A stretch of DNA of 64,000 nt from an uncultured Methylomirabilota bacterium (GTDB lineage Bacteria; Methylomirabilota; Methylomirabilia; Methylomirabilales; 2-02-FULL-66-22): the NCBI GenBank assembly GCA_963845565.1, contig CAWJSJ010000002.1:992001-1056000 (forward strand), read 5' to 3'. Below are positions 12,371 through 63,582 of the stretch, in pieces. The translations under genes were made by a program, and so were the position numbers. Within the stretch, counting starts at the first letter, position 1; each line of letters starts with the position of its first letter. The notes beneath the pieces are model-generated. The model made no database searches. It was given only the letters and a program-made list of their open reading frames with translations, and was not told the origin of the DNA.

Positions 12371-12449
12371 GGCGAGTGTTCCCTCCGCCGCCTCCGATGG
12401 CGCTGGCAGCCGGCGGAGCCGCCGGATGCGCCCTCCGGGGATTGATTGC

Positions 12450-16309: not shown

Positions 16310-16319
16310 GCCCGTGTCC

Positions 16320-18235: not shown

Positions 18236-18236
18236 G

Positions 18237-23718: not shown

Positions 23719-23769
23719 TTAGGAGCCGTTACGAAATAACTTGTCCATTTATTCTTTGACAACGGCTTA
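23719..23769. mobile_element. short hybrid TTA-flanked mini inverted-repeat element, copy 3
   Basis: TTA-GGAGCCGTTACGAAATAA...ATTCTTTGACAACGGC-TTA; the right TTA is the stop codon of the gene ending at 23767. Confidence 0.8.
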
Positions 23770-29875: not shown

Positions 29876-30001
29876 CAGGCTGCTCAAAACGGTCCAGATG
29901 CAAGGCGGCGACTGATCCGGGGCGCGAGGCGTACTTGGTACGTACGCCGCAGCGCCACGGGAGGGAGCCAACGCTGCAGATGGGCCGTTTTGAGCAGCCG
30001 G
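29876..30001. mobile_element. ~125-bp MITE-like element with terminal inverted repeats, copy 2
   Basis: CAGGCTGCTCAAAACGGTCCAGATGC...GCAGATGGGCCGTTTTGAGCAGCCGG; abuts the stop codon at 30002. Confidence 0.75.
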
Positions 30002-42807: not shown

Positions 42808-43011
42808 ATGAACGACAGTAACGCGCCTGTCTGCAAGCGTCTCCGCAGCCGAGGCTTTTACGCCGCAGAGCCCGAGGAGGTGGAGCACTTCGAGTTCTCG
42901 CCCGAGAGCGCATGCTGGTGCGCCCGGACGGTGACCGTCCTCGGCCCCGACGACGTCCTCTGCTCTCTCGACATGTGCCAGCCCGGCCGGACCTGCTTCG
43001 AGACGAGGTAG
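42808..43011 (+). CDS. 67-aa six-Cys hypothetical protein
   Basis: GAGG RBS right after the FAD subunit; C..CWC..C..C..C. Confidence 0.7.
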   Translation: MNDSNAPVCKRLRSRGFYAAEPEEVEHFEFSPESACWCARTVTVLGPDDVLCSLDMCQPGRTCFETR

Positions 43012-43206
43012 GCATTCGCAGGTTGCATGGACCGCCAGGAGTGCCCTGACGAACGCCGCACCGCGACCTCCTTCGGCGGGGCAACCGCCGCGTTATCAAG
43101 AGAACGCGAGGATACTCCGGAAATCACGGGTCCCCGTGTTGAGACCGAAGCGCCTGTCCTCGATCACGAAACGAGCAACCATGGGCGATGGGGAGACGGT
43201 CGGGAC

Positions 43207-44631
43207 ATGGAACGGCTGAGTCAGGAGCAAGGGCGAGCGCTTCGCGCGGCCGGAGCCGCGCCCGCGGCAGTCACGAAGTTTTCGCGCGCCCTCGACGCTC
43301 TGCGTCTGGCGGCGCGGTTGACCGGGAAGAGCCTGGCGGCTGACGCGCGGAAGGCCGGTGCGGTGTATGCGGGAGGCGCCGCGCTCCTGGCGGCCTGGCC
43401 GGCGAAGCCCCGGAGGGATGCCGTCCAGGCAGCGGGCGCGGAAATCGTGCACGGTCTCCTGCGGGCGGTGCGGAACCGATTCGCCCGGGCCTACGTGGGT
43501 CCGATCTACGACCGTGTGACCGAGCAGCGTCGGAGGTTTCTCCGCGCCGACGAGTTGGTCTACGCGGTGGCCGATCTCTGCCCCGGCCTCTGCCCGAGCC
43601 AGAAAGAGGTGGCGGCCGAACGCGGGCTGCTCCTTGCCGAGAAAGATGGGGTCGAGATCGCGCAGGGCGACTTCCTCTCGCACGTCTTCGTTCGCAAGGA
43701 GGCGGGAGACCACTTGCTGCATGCGATGCTCCAGCCGCTGCCGGCGTCGCAGGAGCTTCTGGCAAAGTTCCGGCGAGAGGGGCGGGTGGATCTCGGGACG
43801 GCCCACGTGGAGCGGCGCGGCGCGCTCGGGTGCGTGTTCTTCAATAACCTGCGCTACCTGAACGCCGAGGACGATACCACGGTCGGCCCCCTGGAGACCG
43901 CGATCGATCTGGTGCTGCTCGATTCCGACATCCAGGCGGGCCTGCTGCGGGGAAATCCGGTCACGCACTCCAAATACCGCGGTCGGCGAATCTTTTCCTC
44001 CGGGCTCAACCTGACTCACCTCTATCAAGGGAAGCTCCCGCTGCTTTTCTTTGCGACCAGGGATTTGGGGTTCGTCGGCAAGCTCTACCGGGGGCTGGCC
44101 GGCGACGAGTACGACCCCGACGGGCCCGAGGCCACCCTGGAGAAGCCCTGGATTGCGGCCGTGGAGGGGTTCGCCATCGGTGGCGGCTGCCAACTGCTCC
44201 TGGTCGTGGACTACGTGATCGCGGAAGCGGGGTCCTTCTTCAACCTCCCGGCCCGGAAAGAGGGGATCGTCCCTGGCGTGGCGCCCATTCGACTCCCGCG
44301 CTTCGTGGGGGAGCGGGCGACCCGGGAAGGGATCCTGTTCGACAAGACCTTCACCGCCGAGTCCCCGGAAGGGCGATCCCTTGCCAATGAGGTGGTCCCG
44401 GCCGGGCAAATGGACGAGGCCATCGCCCGCGCCGCGGCCGCCGTCACGGGCGGCGGCGTGATCAGCGCGGGGGCGAACCGCAAGGCCATCCGCCTCGGCC
44501 ATGAGCCCCGGGACCTCTTCCGGCAGTATATGGCCCTGTACTGTCGGGAACAGGCCACCTGCCAATTCAGCCCCACGCTGATCCGGAACCTCGAGCGCAA
44601 CTGGCGCGCAGCAGAACGGCCTCGGGAGTAG
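43207..44631 (+). CDS. dpgC: DpgC-like crotonase-fold (3,5-dihydroxyphenyl)acetyl-CoA 1,2-dioxygenase homolog
   Basis: Extended N-terminus (AEKDGVEIAQG), LNAEDD, LRG..THSKYRGRRIFSSGLNL, EKPWIAAVEGFAIGGGCQLLLV, EGIVPG. Confidence 0.75.
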   Translation: MERLSQEQGRALRAAGAAPAAVTKFSRALDALRLAARLTGKSLAADARKAGAVYAGGAALLAAWPAKPRRDAVQAAGAEIVHGLLRAVRNRFARAYVGPIYDRVTEQRRRFLRADELVYAVADLCPGLCPSQKEVAAERGLLLAEKDGVEIAQGDFLSHVFVRKEAGDHLLHAMLQPLPASQELLAKFRREGRVDLGTAHVERRGALGCVFFNNLRYLNAEDDTTVGPLETAIDLVLLDSDIQAGLLRGNPVTHSKYRGRRIFSSGLNLTHLYQGKLPLLFFATRDLGFVGKLYRGLAGDEYDPDGPEATLEKPWIAAVEGFAIGGGCQLLLVVDYVIAEAGSFFNLPARKEGIVPGVAPIRLPRFVGERATREGILFDKTFTAESPEGRSLANEVVPAGQMDEAIARAAAAVTGGGVISAGANRKAIRLGHEPRDLFRQYMALYCREQATCQFSPTLIRNLERNWRAAERPRE

Positions 44632-44672
44632 CGCCCACCCGACCCCGCGTCTTCCCGCCCCCCGCCACTATC

Positions 44673-44907
44673 TTGACAGCTACCAAGGGCCGGCGTAGAG
44701 TCCCTGCCAACGGCTCCGGCTCTCCCAGCTTTCAGCCGGGCCCACCCTCCTCCTCCTCGACTACGCACCCGACGGGCGAACCAGCCCGGCGTCGGTCCCT
44801 ACCAGGCATGGGTGCCGGGAGCGCGTGCCGCTTCTGGCGAGGCGTATTCCTTCGTCGTGATTGCGGCAGGAGGTACCGGCGGAAACGTTGTCTCCACACC
44901 GACGTTC
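44673..44907 (+). ncRNA. candidate structured ncRNA/leader with sigma70 promoter (motif A, copy 1)
   Basis: TTGACA-17 nt-TAGAGT followed by ~200 nt of stems alignable with 54316-54552. Confidence 0.55.
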
Positions 44908-44961
44908 CCCACCACGTATGATTTTGCACGGGCGGCGGTACGTGCTCTCGAGGGGGTCCCT

Positions 44962-45549
44962 ATGGATCAATATTTGGTCTATCTTGTCACGGTGCTCGGG
45001 GTCGTGCTGTGCATGTTTTCGTTTGCCGTGATCTTCCGCGGCCAGCGCGTTCCGGGAGACGAAGGCAACCCGCAGGAACTGGAGTTCAAGGGCCTGAAAG
45101 TCAGAACGAACGTGGTCGTGTCGCTGCTCCTCGTGTCGGTCGTCGTGGCGGTGCTGCCGCTGGTTCTTCAGGCGTGGCCGCGGATTGTCGAGGCCCGCAG
45201 CCGAAGCTGTCCCGACCAGGTCGCGACGCCGGCGAAGCCGCAGGATCTCGCCCTATTCCTCACCGGACAGGTGCTGGACAACCAGGGGCCAGTGGAGGGC
45301 GCATCGGTGACCGTGGTCAACTTGAAGGACTCAAAACCCGGCGACCAGCAGGAGCCGGTGGCCAAGGTGGTGACAGACGGCAGCGGCAGCTTCGATTTCG
45401 CGCCCCTCCCCCTCAGTGACAGGGACCGCTACAAAGTGGTTGCGGCCAAAGACGGCTATATCGAGCAATACGTATACATGGGCCCAGCGGGGGCCGTCAC
45501 CGTGCGAACCGTGTTGGTGGCAAAGAAGAAGGGCGGAGGAAACCAATGA
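44962..45549 (+). CDS. two-TM membrane protein with a carboxypeptidase-regulatory-like (transthyretin-like) domain
   Basis: GAGGGG RBS; LTGQVLD..GPVEGASVTV...TDGSGSF...YKVVAAKDGY. Confidence 0.75.
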   Translation: MDQYLVYLVTVLGVVLCMFSFAVIFRGQRVPGDEGNPQELEFKGLKVRTNVVVSLLLVSVVVAVLPLVLQAWPRIVEARSRSCPDQVATPAKPQDLALFLTGQVLDNQGPVEGASVTVVNLKDSKPGDQQEPVAKVVTDGSGSFDFAPLPLSDRDRYKVVAAKDGYIEQYVYMGPAGAVTVRTVLVAKKKGGGNQ

Positions 45550-46379
45550 ACACGACGTCGTGGATGGGCGCCGCCGTGGTTGCGCTGGTGCTGATCGGCG
45601 GAGTGGCAGACGCGCAGCCGCTGGCGTCCCGCGTCGTATCGCAGCCTGACGGCGCCGAAATGGTTGTGGTGCCGGAAGGGTCGTTCACGTTCGGCGCAAA
45701 GCAGGAGGAGATCAAAGCGCTGCTCAAAAAGTTGAAGGCCGGCTGGGCCGACATCTACGCCGGTGAGCACAAGAAACAAACCGTGACGCTCCCGGCCTTC
45801 TACATCGATCGGCTCGAGGTCACCAACGAGCAGTACAACCGTTTCGTCGGCGCCGCCAAGGGCAAGCCCTCGCGCTTCGCTCGCTATCCCCAACTCAACG
45901 CACCGAAGCAGCCCGTCGTCGGCATCGGCTGGAAGGACGCCGAGGCGTATTGCCGTTGGTCGGGCAAGCGGTTGCCGACCGAGGAGGAGTGGGAAAAGGC
46001 GGCGCGCGGGACCGACGCCCGCACTTGGCCGTGGGGGAACGAGTCTGACGAGAAGGCGTTCAACGGGAAGGCCGCCGAGTATTCCGCCCCGGTCGCAGTC
46101 GGCAGCTTCCCGAGGGGCGACAGCACGTACGGCGCGGCGGACATGGCCGGAAACGTGTGGGAGATGACCTCCAGCACGTGGCAAGGCGACGCGAAAACGA
46201 TGCGCGGAGGGTCGTTCCTGAACCGTCTGGCCGACGTGCGCGTGACGGTGCGTTGGGCACCCGACGACCCGAGCCGAGGCACCAACTGGCTGGGCTTCCG
46301 CTGCGCCGTGGACGCGGGGATGGCACAAACGCTTTACGGAAAACCATCCCCCGCCGAACCGGCGAAGAAAGGGCCGTAG
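45546..46379 (+). CDS. secreted FGE-sulfatase (SUMF1-like) domain protein lacking the FGE Cys pair
   Basis: Signal peptide; EVTNEQY, PVVGIGW..A..YC, RLPTEEEWEKAARG, DMAGNVWE, RGGSF, GFRC; ATGA overlap with the upstream gene. Confidence 0.9.
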   Translation: MNTTSWMGAAVVALVLIGGVADAQPLASRVVSQPDGAEMVVVPEGSFTFGAKQEEIKALLKKLKAGWADIYAGEHKKQTVTLPAFYIDRLEVTNEQYNRFVGAAKGKPSRFARYPQLNAPKQPVVGIGWKDAEAYCRWSGKRLPTEEEWEKAARGTDARTWPWGNESDEKAFNGKAAEYSAPVAVGSFPRGDSTYGAADMAGNVWEMTSSTWQGDAKTMRGGSFLNRLADVRVTVRWAPDDPSRGTNWLGFRCAVDAGMAQTLYGKPSPAEPAKKGP

Positions 46380-46632
46380 GGGTGCGGGGGTGCCCTCTCG
46401 ACTGTGGGAGCCCAAGGGACCGCGGAATGCACATCAGAATCCATGGCCGCCTTTCATCAGAGTGTCCGGGATGATCCAGGGGCAACAGAAGCACTCGGAG
46501 ATGCGGGCCAGTGTGGGGCGGCGGCGCGGCTGCGAGTATTGAGCTGACGCCCGCCTGACCTTCTCGGCCGTAGGTTCTTTGTCGTCAAAGCGTTTTAGAA
46601 CCAACGTCCCCCGTGATGGAAAGGGGTAGGTG

Positions 46633-49600
46633 ATGGGATCGGCGGCGAATGTCGAAGGTTCGCTCGGCGAGGCACCGCGACGGCGAGAGGATCTGCCCGA
46701 GGTCTCCGACGAGGCCGCTCAGGCCGCGCGAGAACAGGTTGCGCAGCGCACGTTCGTGCCGTCCACGCACCGGCCACCTGAGGAGGTGCTGCCCAATCCG
46801 GAATTCATCCGCATCCTCGACCAGGGGCAGGAAGGCGTCAGCGTCGGCGTCGCGTTGGCAGCGGTGCTCAACTATCTGCGCGCCGAGCAGGGCGAACGCG
46901 AGCCGGTCAGCCCGCGAATGCTGTACGAGTACGCGCGACTGTACGACGAATGGCGCGACGCCGATCACGAAGGCAGTTCGCTGGTCGGCGGCCTCGCCGG
47001 CCTGGTCCGCCACGGCGTATGCCTCGATACCGAATGGCCGCTGTATGACCCCAACCTCCGGCCCGACGCGGCTGCACTGAAGGCGGCGCTGACGAACCGG
47101 CCGGCCGCCGTGCTGCGAGTCGACAAACGCATTGAGCACCTGCGGGCCGCTGTGTTCGAGGACCACGCGGTCGTGGTGGCGGCGGAACTTCACGACGGTT
47201 GGCGGGAGCCGCTGCGCGGCGTGATCCCGTTTCGCGCCAAGCGCCGGGGGAAGGCTGCGACGCAGGGAAGCCACGCCTTCGCCCTGCTGGGCTATACCGC
47301 AGAGGGCTTCATCGTCCAGAATTCATGGGGCATGAACTGGGGCGGTGTCGAGCTGCGAGATCACCACCTGCCCGGGACCGCGATCTGGACCTACGACGAC
47401 GCGACGGCTCATCTTGTGGATGCCTGGGCGATCCAGCTGTCGCGCCGTCCCTACCACGCGCCGCTGGTTGGCTACGACGCCGATAGTCTGGAGGGGGACG
47501 ACCTGCTTGAGATCAAGGCCGAGGTGAACGCCTTCAGCTACGTGCTGGCGTCGCGCGCGATCAAGCCGCCGATGGCGTTGGGCCTGTTCGGCGACTGGGG
47601 CAGCGGGAAGTCGTTCTTCATGCAGGAGATGAAGAAGAAGATCGCGTCGCTCGCCGTGCTACCGGCCAAGCGCCCCGACAGCGGCGAGACGCGGTCGCCG
47701 TTCTGCCGCCAGATCGTACAGATCCGTTTCAACGCCTGGCACTACCTCGATACCGACTTGTGGGCAAGCCTGGTGACCGAAATCTTCGACGGCCTGTTCG
47801 CGGGCATCGGCGGCAAGACCGGTAAACCGGAGGAGAAGCTGCCCGAACTGGCGGTAGAACTGCAAAATGCCAACGGCGTGTACCAGCAGGCACGGCAGCA
47901 GTTGGAGGATGCGAAGACGGCGCGCGCGCGAGCGGAGGCCACGTTGCGGGACGCCGTCAAGGAGCGCGAGGACCGGGAGGTCGCGCTACGCACCCAGCTC
48001 AACGATCTGACGCAGTTGTTGAAGGACACGCCTGCCGTGAAAGCGCAGGTGGATCGGCTCGCCGCGGACCTCGGCATGCCCGAGATGAGAACGTCGTACC
48101 AGGCGCTCGATGCGCGGGCCACCGAGCTCAAGAGCATAACCCACGGGTTCACGGCATTGTTGCAGACGATGTTCTCGACGCCATGGGGCTGGCCACGACT
48201 GTTGTGGCTGATAGCAGCGATGTGCGCGCCAGTCCTGGTCGTGATGGGCATCGAGCTGCTGCGGTGGTGGTTTTCCGTGCCGATCGAACGCTTTCACGCG
48301 TTCGCAGTCCAGCTGAGCACGCTGCTGGCGGCCGTCACCGCCTGGCTGGGCGTGCAGGCCAAGCGCGGTGCGGGCGTGCTGGCCTCGTTGCGGGATGCGC
48401 ACCAGAAGCTGGAAGTGATCCGCGCCACGCGGCGAGCGGAGGCGGTGGCCAACCAGGAAGGCGCATTGCAGGCGCTGCGGGAGAAGGAAGACGCGGCCCG
48501 CAAGAGCATGCAGGATGCCGAGCAGCGCGTGCAGGCACTGCAACGCGAGATCGACGACCTGCAACCGGGACGATTGATCATGCGCTTCATCGAGGAGCGC
48601 ACCAAGTCGAGCGACTATCGCTCGCGGCTGGGGATCGTCAGCCTGGTGCGGCGCGACTTCGAGCGGCTGAGCGAGCTGGCCGACCCGGACTCCGACAAGC
48701 GCAACGCCGACGTGATGCCGGTGGAGCGGATCATCCTGTACATCGACGATCTGGACCGCTGCAAACCGGACCGCGTGATCGAGGTGCTGGAGGCGGTGCA
48801 CCTGCTGCTCGCCTTCCGGCTGTTCATGGTGGTGGTAGCTGTCGATCCGCGCTGGCTGCGCCGCTGCCTGGAAAAGCACTATCCCGACCTCCTGGCCCTC
48901 CGCACCCAGGAGGTGGCCACCGTGGCGCACGTGGTTCCGTCGCGTCCGGCCACGGCGCAGGACTATCTGGAGAAGATCTTCCAGATCCCGTTCACGCTGC
49001 AACCCCTGAAGGACGACGGCTACCGCCGGCTGATCCGCGGCCTGACCGAACAGAACCGCATGCCGGATACGCTCGTGCCGCTGGCAGGCCGTACGAGTGC
49101 GACCGGCGCTGCGCTATCCGCCACCGGGCAGGCAACGGCGGGCACCGAGAGCGGTCAGGCGCAAGGTATGCCGTTGTCTGCGGTGACGGATGTGATCAAG
49201 GCGCAGGCCAAGCAGGCATTGCGCGACCAGGCCACCGCGGAAGACACAGCCGAAAGCGAGGAAAGCGCCATCGAACGGCTGCGTATCCGCGCGTGGGAAC
49301 TGGACGATATGGAGCGCCTGGCGCCACTCTTCCACACGCCGCGTGCGGTCAAGCGCTTCGTCAACACCTATCGTTTCCTGCGTGCCGGGGTGCGGCAACA
49401 ATACCTCGGCCGCTTCGAAGGCGAACGGGACGAGCCGGGCACCTACCGCGCCGCGCTGACCTTGCTGGCAATCATCGTCAGCTACTCCAACGTCGCACCC
49501 CGCTTTCTGCGACGGATCCTCGATACCGCCGAGCGCGGCGCCTCGAAGCAGGGCTGGCTCGACTTCCTGCGAGACGCGCGGGCCGATGCCGTCAGCCTGG

Positions 49601-49887
49601 TGCACGACGCCGAAGACGGTGGGCCGGCGAGCGTGACTGTGCGCAGTACGAGCGGACGCTCGACCCGGAAAACGCCGGCCACACGGCCGCGCGAGGCGGG
49701 AGCGGGTCCGCTGCCGCGCAACTGGGAAGAGGTCGAGTGGCTTCAGTTGTGCGATGCGCTGCTCGGCGTGTCGAAGGATGAGTTCCCGGTGCGCGAGATC
49801 GGGGAGCTCGAAGAATGGGCTCACACCGTGGCGCGCTATTCATTCTCGCTGGGGCCCGTGCCGACGGTCGCTCACCCCGGCCGCTGA
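46633..49887 (+). CDS. papain-like (C1) peptidase domain fused to a KAP-family P-loop NTPase with TM hairpin and coiled coils
   Basis: DQGQEG-V-S, SPRMLY, HAFALLGY, IVQNSWG; GLFGDWGSGKSFFM (Walker A), FNAWHY, IILYIDDLDRC (Walker B), YLEKIFQIPF, PRAVKRFVN. Confidence 0.9.
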   Translation: MGSAANVEGSLGEAPRRREDLPEVSDEAAQAAREQVAQRTFVPSTHRPPEEVLPNPEFIRILDQGQEGVSVGVALAAVLNYLRAEQGEREPVSPRMLYEYARLYDEWRDADHEGSSLVGGLAGLVRHGVCLDTEWPLYDPNLRPDAAALKAALTNRPAAVLRVDKRIEHLRAAVFEDHAVVVAAELHDGWREPLRGVIPFRAKRRGKAATQGSHAFALLGYTAEGFIVQNSWGMNWGGVELRDHHLPGTAIWTYDDATAHLVDAWAIQLSRRPYHAPLVGYDADSLEGDDLLEIKAEVNAFSYVLASRAIKPPMALGLFGDWGSGKSFFMQEMKKKIASLAVLPAKRPDSGETRSPFCRQIVQIRFNAWHYLDTDLWASLVTEIFDGLFAGIGGKTGKPEEKLPELAVELQNANGVYQQARQQLEDAKTARARAEATLRDAVKEREDREVALRTQLNDLTQLLKDTPAVKAQVDRLAADLGMPEMRTSYQALDARATELKSITHGFTALLQTMFSTPWGWPRLLWLIAAMCAPVLVVMGIELLRWWFSVPIERFHAFAVQLSTLLAAVTAWLGVQAKRGAGVLASLRDAHQKLEVIRATRRAEAVANQEGALQALREKEDAARKSMQDAEQRVQALQREIDDLQPGRLIMRFIEERTKSSDYRSRLGIVSLVRRDFERLSELADPDSDKRNADVMPVERIILYIDDLDRCKPDRVIEVLEAVHLLLAFRLFMVVVAVDPRWLRRCLEKHYPDLLALRTQEVATVAHVVPSRPATAQDYLEKIFQIPFTLQPLKDDGYRRLIRGLTEQNRMPDTLVPLAGRTSATGAALSATGQATAGTESGQAQGMPLSAVTDVIKAQAKQALRDQATAEDTAESEESAIERLRIRAWELDDMERLAPLFHTPRAVKRFVNTYRFLRAGVRQQYLGRFEGERDEPGTYRAALTLLAIIVSYSNVAPRFLRRILDTAERGASKQGWLDFLRDARADAVSLVHDAEDGGPASVTVRSTSGRSTRKTPATRPREAGAGPLPRNWEEVEWLQLCDALLGVSKDEFPVREIGELEEWAHTVARYSFSLGPVPTVAHPGR

Positions 49888-49966
49888 CCCGGTGGGCAGC
49901 GCTGGCGCAGCCTGGGCGTTTCAGGGTGGGATCCTTAGGGTGACGGAGATTCTCGGAGGGAGAACA

Positions 49967-51134
49967 GTGACGCAAGCGGAGATGACGCCACGGGAGCGCG
50001 TGAAGGCGGCCCTCAACCACCAGGAGCCCGATCGGGTGCCTCTGGATCTCGGCCAGGCGGTCGGCGACGGGATCACCCTGACCGCCTACCGGAACCTCCT
50101 TGCCCATCTGGGGATGAGCGATAAGATGGTCCAGGTCAAGGACAAGCGCGGGCAGACGGCCCGCGTGGACGAGGAGATCCTGCGACGATTCCACATCGAC
50201 TTCCGGGGGGTCGGGTTGGGCGCCCCGGAGCGCTGGAAGGATCGCTGGCTCGACGAGCGTACCTTCGAGGACGAGTGGGGCGTGGTGCGGACCATGCCCA
50301 AGGACTCCTACTATTTCGACCTGGTCGGCTCCCCGCTGGCGGAAGACGGAAGCCTCTCGGCGCTCGAGACGTACCGCTGGCCGGACCCGATGGATCCCGG
50401 GCGCTTTCGCGGCCTGCGTGAACGGGCGCAACACCTTCATCGGGAGACGGACTACGCCGTCGTGGTGGATCTGAACTGCGCCTTCTTTCTCCGCTGCTGC
50501 GAATTGCGCGGCTGGGAGAACTTCTACATGGACATCGTGGCGAACGTTCCGTTCGCCGAGGCCTTGATGGACCGCTTCCTGGAGATCCGCCTCGCCATCG
50601 CCGAGCGCGCGCTGCAGGAGGTGGGGGAGGACGTGGACATCGTCATGGTGACCAGCGACGACCTCGGGGGCACGGATAGTCCACTCATCTCGCCGGCGCT
50701 CTACCGGTCATTGATCAAGCCCCGGCAGCAGCGCACCTTCGATTTCTTCCGGGCCCGCACCGGGGCCAAGCTCTACTACCACACCGACGGCGCCATCTAC
50801 CCGCTGCTCCCCGATTTCGTCGATTTGGGGGTGGACATCCTGAACCCGGTCCAGGTGTCCGCGGACGGGATGGGCGACACGCAGAAGCTGAAGCGAGAGT
50901 TCGGCGACAAGTTGACCTTCTGGGGCGCCATAGACACCCACCAGGCTCTCCCGTACGGCACCCCCGAGCGACGTTCGCGAGGAGGTCCGCCGCCGGATCC
51001 GGGACCTGGGCCCGGGTGGCGGGTACGTCGTCTGCCCGGTCCACAACATCCAGCCCGAAGTGCCCCCCGCGAACGTCGTCGCAATGTACGAGAGCGCCTA
51101 CGAGCTGGGCCGGTATCCGCTCCGACTCGAATAG
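49967..51134 (+). CDS. uroporphyrinogen decarboxylase/MtaA-CmuA family protein; one frameshift near 50970
   Basis: MTPRERV..ALNHQEPDRVPLD, DDLG, HTDG, NPVQ, FWGAIDT; the C-terminus GPGGGYVVCPVHNIQPEVPP..* is in a shifted frame. Confidence 0.85.
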
Positions 51135-51219
51135 CCGGATCCCCGAGCACTGCGGTCATGGTGGGATTCCGAGATTTCCGCCGAAATAGGGAATGCCGAA
51201 TGAGCGAGGCGAGGCGCGG

Positions 51220-51633
51220 TTAGGTGCGAACGGGGGCGATGATCGCTACGGAAGGAAAGTAGGTCCGGTAGCGCCGGGTATCCCGCGTGAGCAATTGCAG
51301 TCCGGCCACCGCGGCGTGGGCGCCGATGAAGAAGTCGGGCAAGGGCGTGATTTTGCTTCCCTTTCGCTTTCGGTATCGCAGGAAGGCCTTCCCAGCCAGG
51401 AACGCCGCTTCGAGCGGGATCGGGAGCCGAGGAAACGACTCTGCAGGAAGCACCCCTTCCATCTCCTCGATGGTCGCGACCGCGATCGAGACCTCCGCAT
51501 AGATGATCGGATTGATGTAGAGGGGCCCCTCATCGGCGCACTGCGCCAGCGCGGTGGACGACCACGCGTACCACCGGGCGTCCTCGGTGAGCACGTCCAG
51601 GATGACGTTGCTGTCCACCAGGGTCCCCGCCAT
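51220..51633 (-). CDS. vapC: VapC (PIN domain) toxin
   Basis: LVDSNVILD, IIYAEV, PDFFIGAHA, LLTRD. Confidence 0.9.
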   Translation of the reverse strand: MAGTLVDSNVILDVLTEDARWYAWSSTALAQCADEGPLYINPIIYAEVSIAVATIEEMEGVLPAESFPRLPIPLEAAFLAGKAFLRYRKRKGSKITPLPDFFIGAHAAVAGLQLLTRDTRRYRTYFPSVAIIAPVRT

Positions 51634-51860
51634 CACCGACCCCGTGTGAGCGCCATGATCTCATCGGTCGTCATGCGGACCGTGGCCCGCCCGCGCAGGC
51701 GCTCCACAACTCGCTTCCCCCGCACTTGACTTCGTTTCGTGGGGACGAGCGTCACCACATTGCCTTCCACCGCGAACTCCACGTCGGTACCGGGGTGAAT
51801 GGAGAGCCGCTCGCGGATCTCCAGGGGAATGGTGACCTGCCCTTTCGTCGTGACTCTCAT
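51633..51860 (-). CDS. vapB: AbrB/MazE-type antitoxin
   Basis: MRVTTKGQVTIP..IRE; overlaps vapC; GGAGAA RBS. Confidence 0.88.
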   Translation of the reverse strand: MRVTTKGQVTIPLEIRERLSIHPGTDVEFAVEGNVVTLVPTKRSQVRGKRVVERLRGRATVRMTTDEIMALTRGR

Positions 51861-51870
51861 ATTCTTCTCC

Positions 51871-51915
51871 ATTCTTACCGGTAAGAATAATACTCCACAA
51901 GGAACAACTCGTCAA
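51871..51915 (-). promoter_or_regulatory. vapBC promoter with palindromic operator
   Basis: TTGACG-17 nt-TATTAT on the minus strand; perfect palindrome ATTCTTACCGGTAAGAAT at 51871-51888. Confidence 0.75.
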
Positions 51916-51944
51916 ACCACACTCCGTCAGGGGGGACGGCGTTT

Positions 51945-51978
51945 CCTATGACTCTCAGTTACCGGCGGAGAGTCTGCG
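51945..51978 (+). repeat. repeat R, copy 1 (truncated)
   Basis: CCTATGACTCTCAGTTACCGGCGGAGAGTCTGCG; 28/34 identical to 55187-55220. Confidence 0.7.
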
Positions 51979-51995
51979 CCTTGCCTTATCAAGGC

Positions 51996-52030
51996 TTGCC
52001 AAGATCGGACCGCGTGATTACAATGTAATC
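51996..52030 (+). promoter_or_regulatory. mazEF promoter with palindromic operator
   Basis: TTGCCA-17 nt-TACAAT; palindrome GATTACA-A-TGTAATC at 52016-52030 covers the -10 element. Confidence 0.75.
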
Positions 52031-52049
52031 CCTGAAGGGAGGATGAGCC

Positions 52050-52307
52050 ATGCGAGCACGCGTTGTGCGGATCGGGAATTCACGGGGAGTACGCATCCCC
52101 AAGCCGCTCATCGAACAGGTTGGCCTACAGGACGAGGTCGAGATTGCCGTGGAAGGCAGCAGCCTGATCATCCGCGCCGCTGCGCGCCCCCGCGCGGGCT
52201 GGGCGACGGCGTTCCGGATGATGGCCGAGCGGGGAGACGATCGGCTACTGGACGTTGCCGGAGGCTCGACGACCAAGTGGGACGAGGACGAATGGGAATG
52301 GAAGTGA
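52050..52307 (+). CDS. mazE: AbrB/MazE antitoxin
   Basis: RIGNSRGVRIPK; acidic C-terminus. Confidence 0.9.
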   Translation: MRARVVRIGNSRGVRIPKPLIEQVGLQDEVEIAVEGSSLIIRAAARPRAGWATAFRMMAERGDDRLLDVAGGSTTKWDEDEWEWK

Positions 52308-52621
52308 ACCGATTCGAGGTCTACCTGGTCACCCTCGACCCGACCCTGGGAAGCGAGATCCAGAAGACCCGCCCGTGCCTGGTGGTGTCGCCCGACGAAA
52401 TGAACCACCACATCCGGACGGTCATCGTCGCCCCCATGACCACAAAAGGGCAACCCTATCCCACCCGCGTCCCCTGCCGGTTCAAGGGCAGGGCGGGCCA
52501 GATCGTCCTCGACCAGATCCGGACCGTGGACAAAACCCGGCTCGTCCGCCGTCTCGGCCGCCTCGACCCCAAGACCGGGATGAAGGTCCTCGCCGTCCTC
52601 GCTGAACTCTTCGCCCCGTAG
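52292..52621 (+). CDS. mazF: PemK/MazF endoribonuclease toxin
   Basis: LDPTLGSEIQKTRPCLVVS, VAPMT, DQIRTVDKTRL. Confidence 0.92.
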   Translation: MGMEVNRFEVYLVTLDPTLGSEIQKTRPCLVVSPDEMNHHIRTVIVAPMTTKGQPYPTRVPCRFKGRAGQIVLDQIRTVDKTRLVRRLGRLDPKTGMKVLAVLAELFAP

Positions 52622-52625
52622 TTTC

Positions 52626-52643
52626 TTCTTTGACAACGGCTTA
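52626..52643. repeat. right end of the TTA-flanked mini element
   Basis: TTCTTTGACAACGGCTTA, identical to the right ends of the full copies. Confidence 0.7.
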
Positions 52644-52738
52644 CTACGACTACGCGCCTGATGGGCCGATGAGCCCGTGATCGTTTTCCACCACGCATGA
52701 TCTCGTGGAGTACGCACCGCTCCTGGCTGGGCGGATTC
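52644..52738 (+). ncRNA. truncated, decayed copy of structured motif A (copy 2)
   Basis: CTACGACTACGCGCCTGATGGGCCGATGAGCCCGTGATCGTTTTCCACC... closely matches 54400-54495. Confidence 0.6.
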
Positions 52739-52794
52739 TCGCCGTCTGAAGGGCGCTTGCTAAATACGGAAACTTCGGCCATGGTCGTTCTGAT

Positions 52795-52926
52795 ATGAAG
52801 AGACGCCGACGTTACAAGATGCATCTCGTGGTCAATGGGCGCTCGATCGAGGAAGTGGTGACTGACCCCCACTACGAGGTCAAACACTCCGAAATCGACG
52901 ACGAGCCCATCTGCTTTCGGAGGTAG
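52795..52926 (+). pseudogene. 43-aa ORF, possibly an internally deleted small toxin-like gene
   Basis: MKRRRRYKMHLVVNGRSIEEVVTDPHYEVKHSEIDDEPICFRR*. The protein-like N-terminus jumps abruptly to CFRR*. The family resemblance is from memory and untested. Confidence 0.35.
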
Positions 52927-53026
52927 TGTGCAGGAAGGCCCCTCGGAAGAAGACCGCGATCAGCACCGGCACGCCGTTAGGTTCACAGCGCTTTGGAACA
53001 TGCGCTTCCCCTGATATGCATTGAAA

Positions 53027-53115
53027 CGTCTGACTCCTGGTTACACGCGGAGAGCCTGTTGCTGATAAGAGGTGAAGGGAGGCAACGAGTCATGGGACGC
53101 AAGGTCCCCCATGAC
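53027..53115 (+). repeat. repeat R, copy 2
   Basis: TGACTCCTGGTTACACGCGGAGAG...GTCATGGGACGCAAGGTCCCCCATGAC; aligns with 55187-55293. Confidence 0.75.
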
Positions 53116-53158
53116 AGCATAATGGACAAAGAGACGACCATATGCTAAATACAGTCCC

Positions 53159-54319
53159 ATGATAAGACGACCGTACTGGATCGAGCGGATTCATGCCGCC
53201 TGGAAGAAGCGGCCCATCGTCTGGCTCGCGGGCGTGCGCAGAGCCGGCAAGACCACGCTGGCCAGGATGCTTCCTGAGGCCGTCTACCTGAACTGCGACC
53301 TGCCGTCCGTGCTCCATCGGCTCGAAGACCCGGAGCTGTTCTATCGCTCCCTCTCGAAAGGAGCCACGGTCGTCTTCGACGAGGCGCACCGGCTGCCCGA
53401 CCCGGCACAGGTCCTCAAGATCGGCGCTGATGCGTTCCCTCGACTCCGTCTTTTGGCGACGGGCTCGTCCACCCTCTCGGCAACCCGCAAGTTTCGCGAC
53501 ACCCTGGCAGGCCGCAAAACGCTCTTGCCCTTGCCGCCGATTCTCTGGCCGGAGTGCGAGGCCGAATTCGCAGTGAGGGACCTAGACCGCCGCCTCTTTC
53601 GCGGTGGGCTTCCCGAGGCCCTTCTCGCGGACGAGCCAGATGCCGCCTCTTACGCGGAATGGCTGGACAGTTTCTACGCCCGCGACATCCAGGAGTTGTT
53701 TGGCATCCGGGAGCGCACGGGCTTTCTCAATCTCCTCCGCCTGATGCTTCGGCAAAGCGGCGGTCTTGTCGACTACTCGGCCCTGTCGCGCGAATGCGAT
53801 CTCAGCCGGGCGACCGTGAAATCCCACCTCGAAGCCATGACCGTCGCCTGCGCCCTGATCCCGGTTCCGCCTTTCCACGGGGGTGGCCGGCGAGAGTTGG
53901 TCCGTCGCCCGAAGGTCTACGCCTTCGACACGGGGTTCGTGGCCTACGCCCGCGGCTGGCAAGACCTGCGCGCCGAGGACCGCGGGCCGCTCTGGGAGCA
54001 CCTGGTCCTGGACGTGTTGCGCACGGCCCACGAAGGCCAAGAGGTGGCGTACTGGCGGGACAAATCGGGGCGGGAGGTGGATTTCGTCATCCCGCGGGGC
54101 CGACGGGTGGACACCTACGAGTGCAAGATGACTCCTGGGCGGTTCGACCCTGAATCCCTCAAGGTTTTCCGGTCCCACTATCCCGACGGGGAGAACTTCC
54201 TGGTTACACCCGGAATCGAGAGCCCTTACGACCACACATTCGAGGGCCTCGTCGTCCGCGTCACCGGCTGCCGCGACCTGCTGCTCCGAACGATACGACC
54301 GACCGCGGCTCATTCTTGA
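53159..54319 (+). CDS. AAA_14 ATPase with C-terminal DUF4143 (PD-(D/E)xK-like) domain
   Basis: GVRRAGKTT, VFDEAH, ATGSS, GGLPE, PKVYAFDTG, YWRDKSGREVDFV..ECK. Confidence 0.9.
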   Translation: MIRRPYWIERIHAAWKKRPIVWLAGVRRAGKTTLARMLPEAVYLNCDLPSVLHRLEDPELFYRSLSKGATVVFDEAHRLPDPAQVLKIGADAFPRLRLLATGSSTLSATRKFRDTLAGRKTLLPLPPILWPECEAEFAVRDLDRRLFRGGLPEALLADEPDAASYAEWLDSFYARDIQELFGIRERTGFLNLLRLMLRQSGGLVDYSALSRECDLSRATVKSHLEAMTVACALIPVPPFHGGGRRELVRRPKVYAFDTGFVAYARGWQDLRAEDRGPLWEHLVLDVLRTAHEGQEVAYWRDKSGREVDFVIPRGRRVDTYECKMTPGRFDPESLKVFRSHYPDGENFLVTPGIESPYDHTFEGLVVRVTGCRDLLLRTIRPTAAHS

Positions 54320-54552
54320 CAGCCCCGAAGGGCCGGCGTAGAGTCCCTCGCAACGGTTCCGGCCATCCCATCTCTTTGCCGGGCCGCCCTTCAGCCCTCC
54401 TACGACTACGCGCCTGACGGGCCGATGAGCCCGTGATCGTTTTCCACCAGGCATGATCTCACGGAGTGCGTGCCGCTCCTGGCTGGGCAAATTCCTACGT
54501 AGCCATCGTGGTAGGGGTTGTCGGCAGAACCGATGTCTGCACGCCACCGTTC
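54316..54552 (+). ncRNA. candidate structured ncRNA/leader with sigma70 promoter (motif A, copy 3)
   Basis: TTGACA-17 nt-TAGAGT, with the TGA of TTGACA serving as the upstream stop codon; multi-stem fold closed by AACGG/CCGTT. Confidence 0.55.
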
Positions 54553-54590
54553 GCCAACGCACGGAAACGACAGAGGCTCGGTCCCCCACG

Positions 54591-55101
54591 ATGAAGACCA
54601 AGTCCTTGCTCGGCGGTTTCGTGCGACGCGCTTGTGATCTGGGAGCCATCGAGGCGAAGGTCATCCGGGCGGACTCGGTCGTCACGGCGCCCTGGGTGCG
54701 GCTGAAGTGCCAGTTCGGCTGCGGCGGTTGGGGCTCCAATCTGTGCTGCCCGCCACATACGCCGACACCCGAGGAGACCGCCAAAGTGATCGCCTGCTAC
54801 ACGCAGGCCCTCCTGATTCACTGCCGGGGGAATAAACGGCCGACGAAGATCGTGGCGGCGCTGGAGCGCGAGATCTTCCTGTCCGGTTTCTACAAGGCCC
54901 TGGGCTTCGGCGCGGGACCGTGCCGGCTGTGCAAGGACTGTAACCTCGCGGGGTGCATGCGACCCGACGACGCCCGACCAGCCATGGAGGCCTGCGGCAT
55001 CGACGTCTTCGCCACCGCCCGCGCCAACGGCTTCCCGATCGAGGTGGTCACAGGACGCGTCGTGCGAGGACAACTACTACGGCCTCGTCCTGATCGAATA
55101 G
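54591..55101 (+). CDS. DUF2284 Cys-rich predicted metal-binding protein; one frameshift near 55055
   Basis: WVRLKCQFGC..LCCPP, GAGPCRLC..C..C..ARPAMEACGIDVFAT; C-terminus CEDNYYGLVLIE* in a shifted frame. Confidence 0.85.
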
Positions 55102-55186
55102 ACCCCGCCGTCAGTCGGGTTCGAATCCGTGGTGGGGAAGCAGAAGGGACTCGAACGCATGCGCCAGCCACGCCATGGGGTTGTAT

Positions 55187-55293
55187 CCTATGACGCCTGG
55201 TTACGAGCGGAGAGTCTGCGGCTGCTGAGAGGAGAAAGGAGAAAGGTAGTCGTGGGACGCAACGGCCGGGTCCCCCATGACGTCCCCCATGAC
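55187..55293 (+). repeat. repeat R, copy 3, ending in a tandem 12-mer GTCCCCCATGAC x2
   Basis: Aligns with 51945-51978 and 53027-53115; direct repeats at 55270-55281 and 55282-55293. Confidence 0.75.
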
Positions 55294-57351: not shown

Positions 57352-58642
57352 ATGGTATTGACCTATATTGGAATCACCTTTGTAGTAACGATGCTCATGG
57401 GCGTGCCGATCGCCTTCATACTGGGACTCATCCCACTGGGCTACCTGGTTTTCTTCAGCAACATTCCGTTGACCGTAATCGGCCAGACGCTGTTTAACGG
57501 GGCCGACAGCTACATTCTGCTGGCGATCCCGTTTTTCATATCTGCTTCGATTTTGATGAACCGTACCGGCATTACCCGGGACCTGATCAATTTTGCCAAT
57601 CTGATCGTCGGCAGACTCCCGGGAAGCCTGTCCCAGGTCAATATCATATCCAGCATGATCTTCGCCGGTATCACCGGGGCCGCGGTGGCGGATGCGGCTG
57701 CAATCGGCGGCATTCTCATCCCGGCCATGAAGGAAGAAGGATATACGCCTTCGTACAGCGCCGCGTTGACGGTTGCCGCTTCCATCATGGGACCGATTAT
57801 CCCGCCCAGTATCATCATGGTGATTTACGGGTCCATCACGGGAGACTCGATCGGGGCGCTCTTCATGGCGGGTTTCATGCCGGGCATCATGATCGCCGTC
57901 TCGCTGATGATCGTGGCAATCTATTATGCGATTAAAGACAAGCATCCCCGACGTACGACAGGCTACACGCTGAAGGAGTCCGTCAGCATCATCCGAAACG
58001 CGCTGTTGGCCCTGATGATGCCGGTGATCATTGTCGGGGGGATTCTCAGCGGACAATTCACGCCGACCGAGGCGGCCGCCATCGCCTGTGCGTATGCGTT
58101 CATTGTCGGCTTCTTCATTTACAAGCAGCTTACCCTAAGGGACCTGATCGACAGTCTCAAGGAGGGCGCCATCACTTCCGGAGCAATTCTGTTGATTATT
58201 GCTGCGGCGAGAGCTGTTCGGTCTCATGATGTCGATCGAAGCCCTGCCGCAGCAGATCGCGGAAGTGTTCATGACCATTTCCACCGATAAATACGTTTTT
58301 CTGCTGATCGTGAACATTTTCCTGCTGTTTATGGGAATGATCATGGAAACAGGCGCCAATGTCATTCTGCTTGCGCCGATTCTGATTCCCATCGCCATTC
58401 AATATGGGATTCATCCCCTGCATTTTGCGCTGGTTGTATTGGTGAACGTAAACATCGGACTCGCGACCCCGCCCTTGGGCGTCTGTCTCTTCGTGGTTGC
58501 GCCCATTGCCAAGACCTCTTTTGAAAATGTTGTTTCCAAGATATTTCCTTTCTTGGTGGCGGAGATAACCGTACTGTTCTTAATAACGTATATTCCGGAG
58601 CTGATTCTGTTTGTGCCGCGGATGTTCGGCTTCGCGGTATAG
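57352..58642 (+). CDS. dctM: TRAP transporter large permease; one frameshift near 58210
   Basis: LLAIPFF, GITGAAVAD, IIPPSI, FTPTEAA; continues in ORF 58199..58642 (GIHPLHF, TPPLG). Confidence 0.9.
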
Positions 58643-60749: not shown

Positions 60750-63582
60750 TCATCCGGTGGAGCGCATGGCGGTGGCGATGCCGTTGATGGTGAGGTGGAG
60801 CGGCCGGCGCAGGGCGGCCATGGTCTCGGCGTTCGCCTCCGCCCCGTCCGGTCCCTGCAGCGCGCGCATCCGCCGGAGCAGGCTCACCTGGATGTAGGAG
60901 AGCGGGTCCACGTAGGGATTCCGCAGGCGCAGCGACCGCTGGAGGCCCGGGTCGTTGTCCAGGAGCTCCACCTGTTCGGTGATGCCCAGGAGCACCTCGC
61001 GGCAGGTCTCGTACTCGGACCGGATGCGCTCGAAGATCCGGGCGCCCACGGCGGGATCCTGTACCAGGGACGCGTACCGGTGGGCGATCCCCATGTCCGC
61101 CTTTTCCATGGTCATCTGGGCATTCTCGATCACCCGGGTGAAGAACGGCCATTGGCGGTACATGGTGCGCAAGAGCGACAGGTGTTCCGCGGGATTCTCC
61201 GACAGGAAGCTCTTGAGGGCCGTGCCCATGCCGTACCAGCCGGGGAGGTAGTGGCGACTCTGGACCCAGGCGAACACCCACGGAATCGCCCGCAGGTCCT
61301 CGAAGCCGCTTGTACCATGCCGCCGAGCGGGCCGCGACGCGATATTCAGCCGACTGATCTCCTGGACCGGGGTCGCCTCCTCGAAGTACTGGAACGCGTC
61401 GGGGTCCTCGACCACCAGCGCCCGGTAGGCCCGGTGCGCCCGGTCGGAGATATCGGCCATCACGGCGGGCCAGGCGGGAGCGACGGCGGACGCCTCGTAC
61501 GCGCCGGTGCTGGTCTCCAGGACCGATGACGCGACCAGCTCCAGATTGCGCATCGCCACCTGGGCATCCCCGTACTTGTAGTGGATCATCTCCCCCTGTT
61601 CGGTGATCTTGATCTTCCCGCCCACGCTCCCGCGCGGCTGGGCGTGGATCGCCTCGTGCATGGGTCCGCCGCCGCGGCCCACCGTCCCGCCCCGGCCGTG
61701 GAAGATCCGGAGCTTCACGCCCTGCGACTGGGCCGACGCCGCCAGCCCCTGCTGTGCCACGTACAGCTCCCAGTTCGAGGTGAGGTAGCCGCCGTCCTTG
61801 CTGCTGTCGGAGTATCCCAGCATCACCTCCTGAATCCCCCCGCGGCCTGCGAGATGCGCCCGATACGCCCGATTGGCGTACAGCGCGTCCATGATGTGCG
61901 GGGCGGCGCGGAGGACGTGGATCTTCTCGAAGAGGGGCACCAGATCCAGCCGACTTTCGACCCCGCCGGTCTCCCGTGTGACGAGGCCGGCCTCCTTGGC
62001 CAGCAGCAGGGCCGCCAGGACGTCGCTGGGCTGCTCGGTCATGCTGATGATGAAGGCGGTGACTGCCGCGGGCGCCACCTCGGTCTGGGCACGTCGGATG
62101 ATCCGAAAGAGCTCGATGGTGTCCGTGGTGGTCGCGCTCCACCGGGCAAACGGCGGAATCAAGGGGCGCGGCGTCTCCAGCTCGCGCGTGAGGAGCGCTT
62201 GCCGTTCCGATTCGTCGAGCGAGCGGAGATCCCGGTCCGTCAGGCCGACCGCCAGCGCAATCTCCGCGACGGTCGCGCGGAGCGCCGCGGCATCCTGCCG
62301 GATGTCGAGGGGCGCCAGATGGAAGCCGAAGACGCTGACCTGGTCCATCATGGCCTGGACGATCCCCTCCGCGAGGCGTGCGCCGCGGTTGGCGGCGAGG
62401 CTCCCATGGATCAGGGCCAGGTCGGCCAGGAGTTCCGCGGCCTGGGCGTACGGCCACGCGTCCCCGGCAGGGCCGGGCGTTCCGGCGAGCCGCGCGTTGG
62501 CGAGCCGCGACGCGTCCAGCCGCCGGCCCATGCAGCGCAGCTTGCGCCGATACCACTCGGACTCGTTCCGCGAGTCCGCCCGCGCCTCCATCAGGCCGAG
62601 TCGCGCCTCGTCGGCTTCCACCGACGCACGCAAGTCTTCCTCCACCCCGACCTGTCCTTGCGACTGGCTGAGCGCCGCACCGAGGCGCTCGACCCCGGCT
62701 CGGTGCTTCCGCAACGCGAGATCCTTGTGCAGCCGCAGCGTCTCCCAGGTGGTCTCCAGCGTGACGTGGGGATTCCCGTCCCGATCGCCCCCGATCCACG
62801 AGCCGAGCCGGAAGAAGGGGGGGATGCGAAACGTCGTCTCGGGGTAATGTCTCCGCAGGGCATGTCGCAGATCGCGATAGATCCGGGGCAGCACCTCCCA
62901 CAGGACTTCGTCGAAGTAGAACAGGCCGTTGCGGACCTCGTCCTGGACCGTCGGCGGCCGGCGCCGGACTTCATCGCTCTGCCAGATGGCGGTGATGTCC
63001 GCGAGGATGTCGTCCTCCAGCCATCTCCTGCTCCCGAACCGTCAGGAGCTGCTGGTCCAGGGCGGCCAGGTGTCCGGAGATCCGCTGGGTCTTCTCCAGA
63101 ATGCTCCGCCGCTTGGCTTCCGTCGGATGCGCGGTGAGGACCAGCGTGATGTCCAAGGTGTGAAGCAGCGCCTGGAGATCCTGGGCGGCGACGCCGGCGC
63201 GGCGGCAGTGCGCCACCGCATGGTCGAGCGACCCGGGCCGGGAACCAGCCGGAGCCGCGAGCTCGTCCTGCCGGAGCTTTCGGGTCTCGTGAATCTGCTC
63301 GGCCACGTTGACGAGCTGCAGGAAGGTGGTAAATGCCCGGATGATCTGGCTGGAGGTCGGCAGGTCGAGACCCTCGGTCAGGCAGGCCATCTCCGCCTCC
63401 CGTTCCAGGGAAAAGGTCTGCCGGAGGTCCTTGCTCAGATTCCGGATCCGTTCTTCCGTCTCGAACAGCGCGCTGCCCGCTTGCTCCCGGATGACGTTCC
63501 CCAGGAGATTCCCAAGGCGGCGAATGTCGCCGCGCAGTGGGGCATCCCCGGCGGAAGGGTCTCGCAACGTATTCTCAGACAT
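60750..63582 (-). CDS. ppc: phosphoenolpyruvate carboxylase (bacterial type); one frameshift near 63020
   Basis: VLTAHPTE, GSWIGGDRDGNP, QEVMLGYSDSSKDGG, FHGRGGTVGRGGGP, LRAIPW, RNPY. Confidence 0.93.

What the first reader, a model, noticed from the sequence alone, without database searches (positions are those of the whole stretch)
44673..55293. Alternating array of two non-coding repeats (A-R-A-R-A-R) bracketing defence-like cargo
Seen in sequence: motif A (44673, 52644, 54316) and repeat R (51945, 53027, 55187) alternate strictly and all face the same way. The segments between them carry [membrane protein, FGE protein, peptidase-KAP, UroD-like, vapBC], [mazEF], [43-aa remnant], [AAA-DUF4143] and [DUF2284]. 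No integrase or transposase lies in the window. Inference: A and R are the left and right ends of a small non-autonomous integrative element, or cassette joints, that accumulated in tandem and captured toxin-antitoxin and defence-type genes. This would be an integron-like gene-capture platform that uses a promoter-bearing structured RNA instead of attC sites.
Basis: partly seen in the sequence, partly recalled or inferred. Interest (0 to 1): 0.8.

Follow-up and report, generated by a model that had tools for sequence, protein, structure and literature searches.

The report
Promoter-carrying mini-transposon remnants between toxin-antitoxin genes
The two repeats are real, but they are separate, decaying gene-less copies of a little-studied tyrosine-transposase element rather than the two ends of one unit; one carries a strong conserved promoter and keeps turning up as the joint between reshuffled toxin-antitoxin and other genes in these uncultured bacteria.

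Summary
The repeats are real and co-oriented, three each, and occur only here in this genome. The alternation has P=0.1 by chance. A is found in 8 of 20 same-genus genomes; R in 0 of 20, so they are not paired ends.

A is the promoter-bearing middle of a ~560-bp gene-less element with GGGACG-type terminal inverted repeats, matching those of tyrosine-transposase (TIRYT/TIRtron) elements in this genus. R is a separate ~95-bp element with both ends of the same type.

The locus is variable. Modules are reshuffled by crossover inside A and by end-to-end deletion. Toxin genes are enriched beside A: 18 in 143 kb versus 1 in 125 kb, loci not independent. The promoter boxes are A's best-conserved part; RNA-structure support is weak. 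No attC was found here and the integron integrase lies ~600 kb away.

Verdict: a new variant of a known, barely studied class. The scan had noted TIRtron mini-elements on other DNA before. A transposase-driven gene-capture platform remains possible but unproven.

The parts
44664..44912 (+). A1: positions ~205-451 of the ~560-bp non-autonomous TIR element; -35 TTGACA 44673-44678, 17-nt spacer, -10 TAGAGT 44696-44701; decayed inner right end
44962..46379 (+). Membrane protein with CarboxypepD_reg-like domain and FGE-sulfatase-domain protein; strain-variable block
   Evidence: a joint skipping 44637-49940 in run X4
46588..46612 (+). J: right terminal repeat, 20 of 20 compared bases identical to the TIR of the intact TIRYT element at G000 C2:326.7-327.8 kb (L179)
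46630..49887 (+). 1085-aa KAP-family NTPase fusion (weak QatA/PifA/PDC-S20 hits, far below cut-off); candidate defence cargo
49970..51136 (+). UroD-like gene with a one-base frameshift near 50969; conserved anchor of the locus, not captured cargo
51220..51872 (-). VapBC pair (AbrB/MazE-type antitoxin plus PIN toxin)
51930..51981 (+). R1: left TIR plus core of the R mini-element; right end lost
52050..52621 (+). MazEF pair
52626..52643 (+). Lone right end of the genome-wide ~105-bp MITE, abutting A2 where its promoter half is missing
52642..52747 (+). A2: positions ~292-398 of the element; no promoter
52795..52926 (+). 43-aa remnant of a 96-aa gene that in G009 precedes an HTH_37 gene (probable TA pair; inference)
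53021..53115 (+). R2: mini-element with decayed left and intact right TIR
53159..54319 (+). AAA_14-DUF4143 ATPase (PADLOC PDC-S01 models, E 1e-52)
54306..54556 (+). A3: positions ~200-446 of the element; -35 at 54316-54321, -10 at 54339-54344; mosaic (first 134 nt identical to L116's A, rest closer to L124's A)
54590..55102 (+). DUF2284 gene with a one-base frameshift near 55051
55174..55293 (+). R3: mini-element; left end matches a TIRYT TIR at G000 C2:1263.6 kb at 18 of 19 bases; right end carries a duplicated terminal 12-mer

Best explanation
The array is a hot spot of gene-less derivatives of TIRYT/TIRtron elements (Y1/HUH tyrosine transposases with a C-terminal HTH, flanked by GGGACG-type terminal inverted repeats). 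A is the middle of a ~560-bp nested element (outer TIR pair at 1 and 560, inner TIR-like ends at ~60 and ~450) whose interior is captured DNA with a consensus sigma70 promoter. R is an independent ~95-bp mini-element. SHOWN: ends, family membership of the ends, variable gene content, a mosaic A, junctions at ends. INFERRED: transposases encoded elsewhere place these elements, often beside existing ends. The repeated A copies then serve as homology for crossover (duplication, excision, permutation of modules); end-to-end deletions and other IS/MITE insertions trim them; the promoter is kept because it transcribes the next gene; TA pairs accumulate and stabilise the array. The A-R alternation is a local by-product of duplication and shuffling.
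For: A complete element with both TIRs in L100. 16 of 62 non-redundant promoter-bearing copies start at the left TIR; TIR-like words at 19 of 87 copy 3' ends versus 155 of 5000 random 100-mers. TIRYT homologues in 21 of 21 genus genomes; 20 of 30 fetched are flanked by GGGAC-containing inverted repeats; the A element's left TIR matches L159 at 18/20, its inner right end matches L179 at 17/20 and L159 at 24/29. R1 left end versus reverse complement of R2 right end 18/24; the same TIR type sits beside a TIRYT N-terminal remnant in G000. L116 holds AAA-A-43aa-R2-AAA', a permutation of the window unit with the crossover inside A. L124 holds UroD-A-DUF2284-ends-vapC. A contig of run X1 joins R2's right end to the DUF2284 leader, skipping 1459 bp. 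Copies average 77% identity to consensus and 64% to each other, as expected for independent decay.
Against: No empty-site/filled-site pair and no transposition was seen. The window's A copies lack the outer TIRs. 30 of 62 copies begin at positions 190-208, where there is no TIR; this boundary is unexplained (promoter retention or a real junction). Only 19 of 87 copy ends carry a TIR-like word. A's interior has no homology to TIRYT genes, so its origin is unknown. The ends read GGGGACG, not the published GGGGWSAS. L116 and the joints are single assembled contigs and could be assembly chimeras. A has only 1-5 blast matches per genome, unlike a freely moving MITE. Co-orientation of the downstream gene (37 of 42) is not clearly above this genome's baseline (118 of 146).
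Confidence: 0.7

Rival explanations
1. A is an active, site-specific cassette joint: a TIRYT (or other) enzyme cuts at a fixed point just upstream of the -35 box or at the ends and adds promoterless or TA modules, giving an integron-like capture and expression platform without attC or IntI.
For: Sharp boundary at positions 190-208 in 30 of 62 copies. Promoter boxes are the best-conserved part, -35 at 97% and -10 at 92% versus 77% downstream. Arrays of co-oriented copies between TA modules in L098, L036, L037, L028. Toxin enrichment 18 in 143 kb versus 1 in 125 kb and 1 in 81 kb beside TIRYT genes. One junction at TGAC microhomology between R2's end and the AAA module.
Against: The one mapped crossover lies in a 31-bp identical stretch 100 nt downstream of that boundary, as ordinary homologous recombination would give. 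Copies decay evenly and are cut at many places by IS605, IS110 and MITE insertions. No clean case of cargo inserted between the two halves of one element was seen. TA loci are related and several are the same chromosomal site, so the enrichment is overstated.
Confidence: 0.2
2. A encodes a functional structured small RNA or regulatory leader (for example an antitoxin-like RNA) that was picked up by a TIR element and is kept next to TA genes for its RNA function.
For: Conserved promoter followed by ~220 nt without a coding signal; three short hairpins pair in 86% of cells, with covariation reached by 4 of 500 shuffles.
Against: No Rfam match; folding z-scores -0.10 and -0.68; consensus fold only -3.4 kcal/mol and different from my hairpins 1 and 2; the tool notes that 5-25% of neutral alignments reach such shuffle ranks; most copies are truncated inside the putative RNA.
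Confidence: 0.07
3. One reading: A and R are left and right ends of one small integrative element that piled up in tandem.
For: Strict alternation and common orientation in the window; L116 also has A before R2.
Against: Alternation P=0.1; R core in 0 of 20 same-genus genomes and no credible GTDB pattern hit; many A arrays without R; R and the A element each have two ends of their own; L124 has A-DUF2284 with no R core.
Confidence: 0.03

Closest known systems
TIRtrons / TIRYT and their TIR repeat families (Di Nocera et al. 2013, PMC3733652, passages and section 16 read; TnpA-Y1 subclass 2.1 of Quentin et al. 2018, PMC6006769, abstract and passages read)
   Same: Y1/HUH transposase genes with a C-terminal HTH flanked by G-rich terminal inverted repeats; gene-less TIR copies, singly or clustered, elsewhere in the genome.
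   Different: Ends here read GGGGACG rather than GGGGWSAS. The passages read describe short TIR repeats, not a ~560-bp nested element with an internal promoter, TA neighbours or module shuffling. Supplements (TIR lists, alignment) were not opened and may bear on this.
Integrons and CALINs (established knowledge)
   Same: Tandem variable modules rich in TA pairs, a repeated joint, a promoter reading into cargo, enzyme possibly in trans.
   Different: No attC found in the array, no adjacent IntI (the genome's own integron with attC is ~600 kb away); the joint is 250-560 bp, decays evenly and carries its own promoter.
TIMEs, Tn3-derived inverted-repeat miniature elements forming mosaic non-autonomous transposons (PMC4133298; search listing and start of abstract only)
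   Same: Miniature elements flanking passenger genes and moved by a transposase in trans.
   Different: TIMEs depend on DDE Tn3 transposases; here the ends belong to Y1/HUH elements and mobility is untested.
ISEcp1/ISCR-type elements with outward promoters and one-ended capture (recalled)
   Same: One fixed end, variable other end, promoter driving the neighbouring gene.
   Different: Those elements encode their own transposase next to the cargo; no such gene lies in this array.

Membership tests
Non-autonomous TIRtron (TIRYT) derivative | Element bounded by terminal inverted repeats | tested here: met
   L100 699-1259 has both ends; R1 left versus R2 right 18/24. Window A copies themselves are truncated.
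Non-autonomous TIRtron (TIRYT) derivative | Ends match those flanking a Y1 tyrosine-transposase gene in the same lineage | tested here: met
   18/20 with L159, 17/20 and 20/20 (J) with L179 in G000; R end beside a TIRYT remnant; best match of R ends to the fetched intact elements only 13/20.
Non-autonomous TIRtron (TIRYT) derivative | Partner protein has Y1_Tnp core plus C-terminal HTH | tested here: met
   PF01797 in 3 of 3 G000 proteins scanned, HTH_23 weakly in 1; NF047646 hits below cut-off.
Non-autonomous TIRtron (TIRYT) derivative | Published TIR consensus GGGGWSAS | tested here: not met
   Ends read GGGGACG(T/C): first six positions fit, the seventh does not. The paper says only some TIRs fit the consensus.
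Non-autonomous TIRtron (TIRYT) derivative | Mobilisation in trans by the transposase | not testable with these tools
   No empty/filled site pair found; needs experiment.
Integron / CALIN | Adjacent integron integrase and attI | tested here: not met
   Full intI at C2:1646488, ~600 kb away.
Integron / CALIN | attC sites after each cassette | tested here: not met
   0 in 44-56 kb by a home-made scan that found 1 site at the intI locus but none at two other loci with attC-like sites visible by eye, so sensitivity is low; none seen by reading the sequence; no Rfam hit. IntegronFinder was not available.
Integron / CALIN | Promoter reading into the variable modules | tested here: inconclusive
   Conserved TTGACA-N17-TAGAGT; activity not measured; co-orientation near baseline.
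Integrative element with A = left end, R = right end | Fixed A-R pairing around variable cargo in relatives | tested here: not met
Known structured RNA family | Rfam match or supported conserved structure | tested here: inconclusive
   No Rfam hit; marginal covariation.

The most novel reading that the evidence does not exclude
In Methylomirabilota, a promoter-carrying TIRYT mini-element acts as a reusable joint: a Y1/HUH transposase in trans adds new modules next to existing ends or at the fixed boundary just upstream of the -35 box, and crossover inside the element excises and reorders them. This would be an integron-like platform for capturing, expressing and shuffling toxin-antitoxin and defence genes that runs on a single-strand HUH enzyme, and the first concrete function for the TIRYT subclass.
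Probability: 0.22. Interest if true: 0.75.

Novelty: new variant of a known kind. Interest (0 to 1): 0.45.

Why it matters
TIRYT-type genes are the second largest Y1-transposase subclass (14.9% of strains in PMC6006769), and the passages read report no experimental test of their activity. This locus gives cognate transposase-end pairs in one genome (J and A ends with L179) and natural rearrangement junctions, which makes their activity directly testable. If they build TA/defence arrays, that is a route to defence islands outside integrons. If not, the finding is a useful warning: alternating repeats in such islands can be a palimpsest of decayed mini-elements.

Tried and rejected
tRNA/att-site origin of the motif upstream of R3: no matching tRNA 3' end in G000; it is a separate hairpin on the DUF2284 flank. 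Protein-coding origin of A: stops in 20-24 of 27 copies in every frame and no codon periodicity; no hit to a TIRYT profile, best E 0.88 among 510 translations. A as decayed TIRYT DNA: scores within the shuffled range outside the TIR. Rfam: nothing at gathering level. Phage and plasmid collections: no match; viral contigs: 0. GTDB pattern for R: 1 hit, apparently in coding DNA of an unrelated phylum, judged chance. An intI fragment beside A in L104 was a single case in 47 loci and was not pursued. Pattern scan for the A element's left TIR: 10 loci, none with a Y1 gene within 1.6 kb, so no autonomous element with exactly these ends was found. Co-orientation as evidence for promoter use: rejected against the genome baseline. 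RNA run X15 covers parts of the region, but contigs cannot show transcription. The joint 51155-54299 has only 23 letters on its short side and is used only as a hint. Literature searches listed no paper on TIRYT-built TA arrays or on this element; the library is incomplete.
Full report
OBSERVATION. The repeats exist as described. A occurs at 44664-44912, 52642-52747 and 54306-54556, R at about 51930, 53021 and 55174, all on the + strand. Profile searches of the whole genome (G000, 5.36 Mb, 98.7% complete) return only these three copies of each, so the similarity is far above chance. The order is not: three and three items alternate with probability 0.1. A1 and A3 begin with TTGACA-N17-TAGAGT. 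A2 lacks that half and abuts the lone right end of a ~105-bp MITE with 198 copies in the genome. Pfam confirms the cargo labels. PADLOC gives the AAA-DUF4143 protein a PDC-S01 hit and the KAP protein weak QatA/PifA hits. Named records carrying A are Candidatus Methylomirabilota.

A IS WIDESPREAD, R IS NOT. A matched 8 of 20 same-genus genomes, often in clusters, and 50 metagenome loci by exact pattern; none in viral contigs, phages or plasmids. The R core matched 0 of 20 same-genus genomes. Only sub-motifs of R3's flanks matched, in 7 of 20. Among all fetched loci, R was found only in window-derived loci and in L116, a close strain. A GTDB-wide pattern gave one hit that I judge chance. A and R are therefore not paired ends.

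WHAT A IS. Extending copies on both sides showed shared sequence ~200 nt upstream and ~110 nt downstream of A. L100 holds a complete ~560-bp element with inverted ends beginning GGGACGTTGCTTCC. A profile from 73 fragments places the window copies at positions ~200-450 and 292-398. Of 62 non-redundant promoter-bearing copies, 16 start at the left end, 16 between positions 13 and 189, and 30 at 190-208; the last cluster is unexplained. End-like words occur at 19 of 87 3' ends and 19 of 90 5' ends, versus 155 and 194 of 5000 random 100-mers from the same loci. The interior is non-coding and unrelated to transposase genes. Copies are 77% identical to consensus and 64% to each other (26 copies). 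Many are cut by other elements, such as IS605 at position 271 and IS110.

THE PARTNER ENZYME. G000 encodes Y1 (PF01797) proteins of 320-350 aa flanked by inverted repeats of the same type. Homologues are in 21 of 21 genus genomes; 20 of the 30 loci fetched have GGGAC-containing inverted repeats. The element's left end matches the L159 repeat at 18 of 20 bases. Its inner right end matches L179 (in G000) at 17 of 20 and L159 at 24 of 29. The end at window 46588-46612 matches L179 at 20 of 20. These genes fit TIRYT/TIRtrons (PMC3733652, passages and section 16) and subclass 2.1 of PMC6006769 (abstract and passages), although the ends depart from the published GGGGWSAS at position 7. No autonomous element with exactly A's outer ends was found (10 loci).

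WHAT R IS. R1's left end is the inverted complement of R2's right end at 18 of 24 bases. R3's left end matches, at 18 of 19, a repeat beside a TIRYT N-terminal remnant at C2:1263.6 kb. R3's tail is an end type seen directly beside a TIRYT gene start in L054. Each R is thus a small element with its own two ends, variously decayed.

THE LOCUS IS SHUFFLED. G009 keeps the anchors (xanthine-dehydrogenase genes, DpgC-like, UroD-like, PEP carboxylase) with four A copies, HicAB and different cargo (patatin, caspase, TPR-CHAT). L124 reads UroD-A-DUF2284-ends-vapC, a different order. L116 reads AAA-A-43aa-R2-AAA'. Its A is identical to A3 for 134 nt and then to A2 (1 mismatch in 157), so a crossover fell in a 31-bp identical stretch inside A. 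In 4 of the 24 listed runs laid on the region, one contig skips 44637-49940 (depth 15.8) and one joins R2's right end to the DUF2284 leader (1459 bp skipped, depth 2.4). These are single assembled contigs and could be chimeras.

TA ASSOCIATION AND PROMOTER. After dropping 19 near-duplicate or A-less loci, 47 remained. Among small ORFs (79 of 80 near, 38 far, 46 beside TIRYT genes), Pfam toxin families numbered 18 in 143 kb within 1.5 kb of the element, 1 in 125 kb beyond 3 kb, and 1 in 81 kb beside TIRYT genes; 20 of 47 loci had a TA-type Pfam hit near the element. Related modules and the same chromosomal site recur, so the counts are not independent. In 32 copies not selected by the promoter pattern, the -35 box was 97% and the -10 box 92% conserved, versus 77% downstream, and TTGACA was the top hexamer; some ascertainment remains. 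Downstream genes were co-oriented in 37 of 42 cases, not clearly above the genome's 118 of 146.

RNA STRUCTURE. No Rfam family; z-scores -0.10 and -0.68; consensus fold -3.4 kcal/mol. Three hairpins I named pair in 86% of cells, with 4-6 of 500 shuffles as high, a level neutral alignments can reach. A structured RNA is not established.

INTEGRON TEST. The genome has a full integron integrase with attC-type sites about 600 kb away. A low-sensitivity scan found none in 44-56 kb.

MECHANISM AND VERDICT. Shown: two independent TIR-bounded element families of TIRYT type, a conserved promoter, variable content, a mosaic A and junctions at ends. Inferred: insertion in trans, crossover between A copies, trimming by deletions, promoter retention and stabilisation by TA pairs (confidence 0.7). 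A site-specific capture platform (0.2), a functional RNA (0.07) and the paired-ends model (0.03) are the rivals. The class is known, and the scan's index holds 81 earlier notes matching the TIR/tyrosine-transposase words on other genomes, none on this sequence. A ~560-bp promoter-bearing form tied to TA arrays was not listed in my five literature searches. Novelty: new variant of a known kind; interest 0.45.

Noticed in passing
window 12449-12554, 16319-16424, 23719-23774: Copies of a ~105-bp MITE with 198 matches in the genome, 186 of them at least 95 nt long; no partner transposase found beside lone right ends.
   Followed up: partly
window 18203-18242 and 29969-30008: A second high-copy intergenic repeat with many matches genome-wide; family not determined.
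   Followed up: no
window 50969, 54583, 55051; also split DctM (57352-58642) and PEP carboxylase (60750-63582): One-base indels that frameshift UroD-like and DUF2284 are absent in contigs of other runs; several split genes suggest indel errors in this assembly or recent pseudogenes.
   Followed up: partly
window 42808-43011: A 67-aa Cys-rich ORF without Pfam hit closes the xanthine-dehydrogenase operon and marks the left edge of this hot spot in several relatives.
   Followed up: partly
window 43027-44631: DpgC-like dioxygenase (NF042432, below cut-off) without neighbouring dpg genes seen; preceded by an A copy in G009, L096, L101 and L117.
   Followed up: partly
window 46630-47450: The N-terminal part of the KAP protein looks like a papain-type peptidase (recalled motif, no Pfam hit) whose expected catalytic Cys position reads Ser.
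   Followed up: no
G000 C2:1643400-1647432 (L135), C2:2007315, C4:88488: A complete integron with attC-type sites and two further intI fragments with cassette-like genes.
   Followed up: partly
L040:10150, L041, L084, L095, L111, L123 (element position 271): The element is repeatedly cut after TTGAA by an IS605/TnpB element or its remnant, often followed by a BrnT/BrnA-type pair.
   Followed up: partly
L029:604-11466 (G009): At the orthologous site the cargo is patatin, caspase and two TPR-CHAT genes, a possible protease-based defence or conflict module.
   Followed up: no
window 55110-55165; L051, L056, L062, L063, L071: A hairpin motif resembling a reversed tRNA T-arm recurs in relatives but matches no tRNA of G000.
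   Followed up: partly
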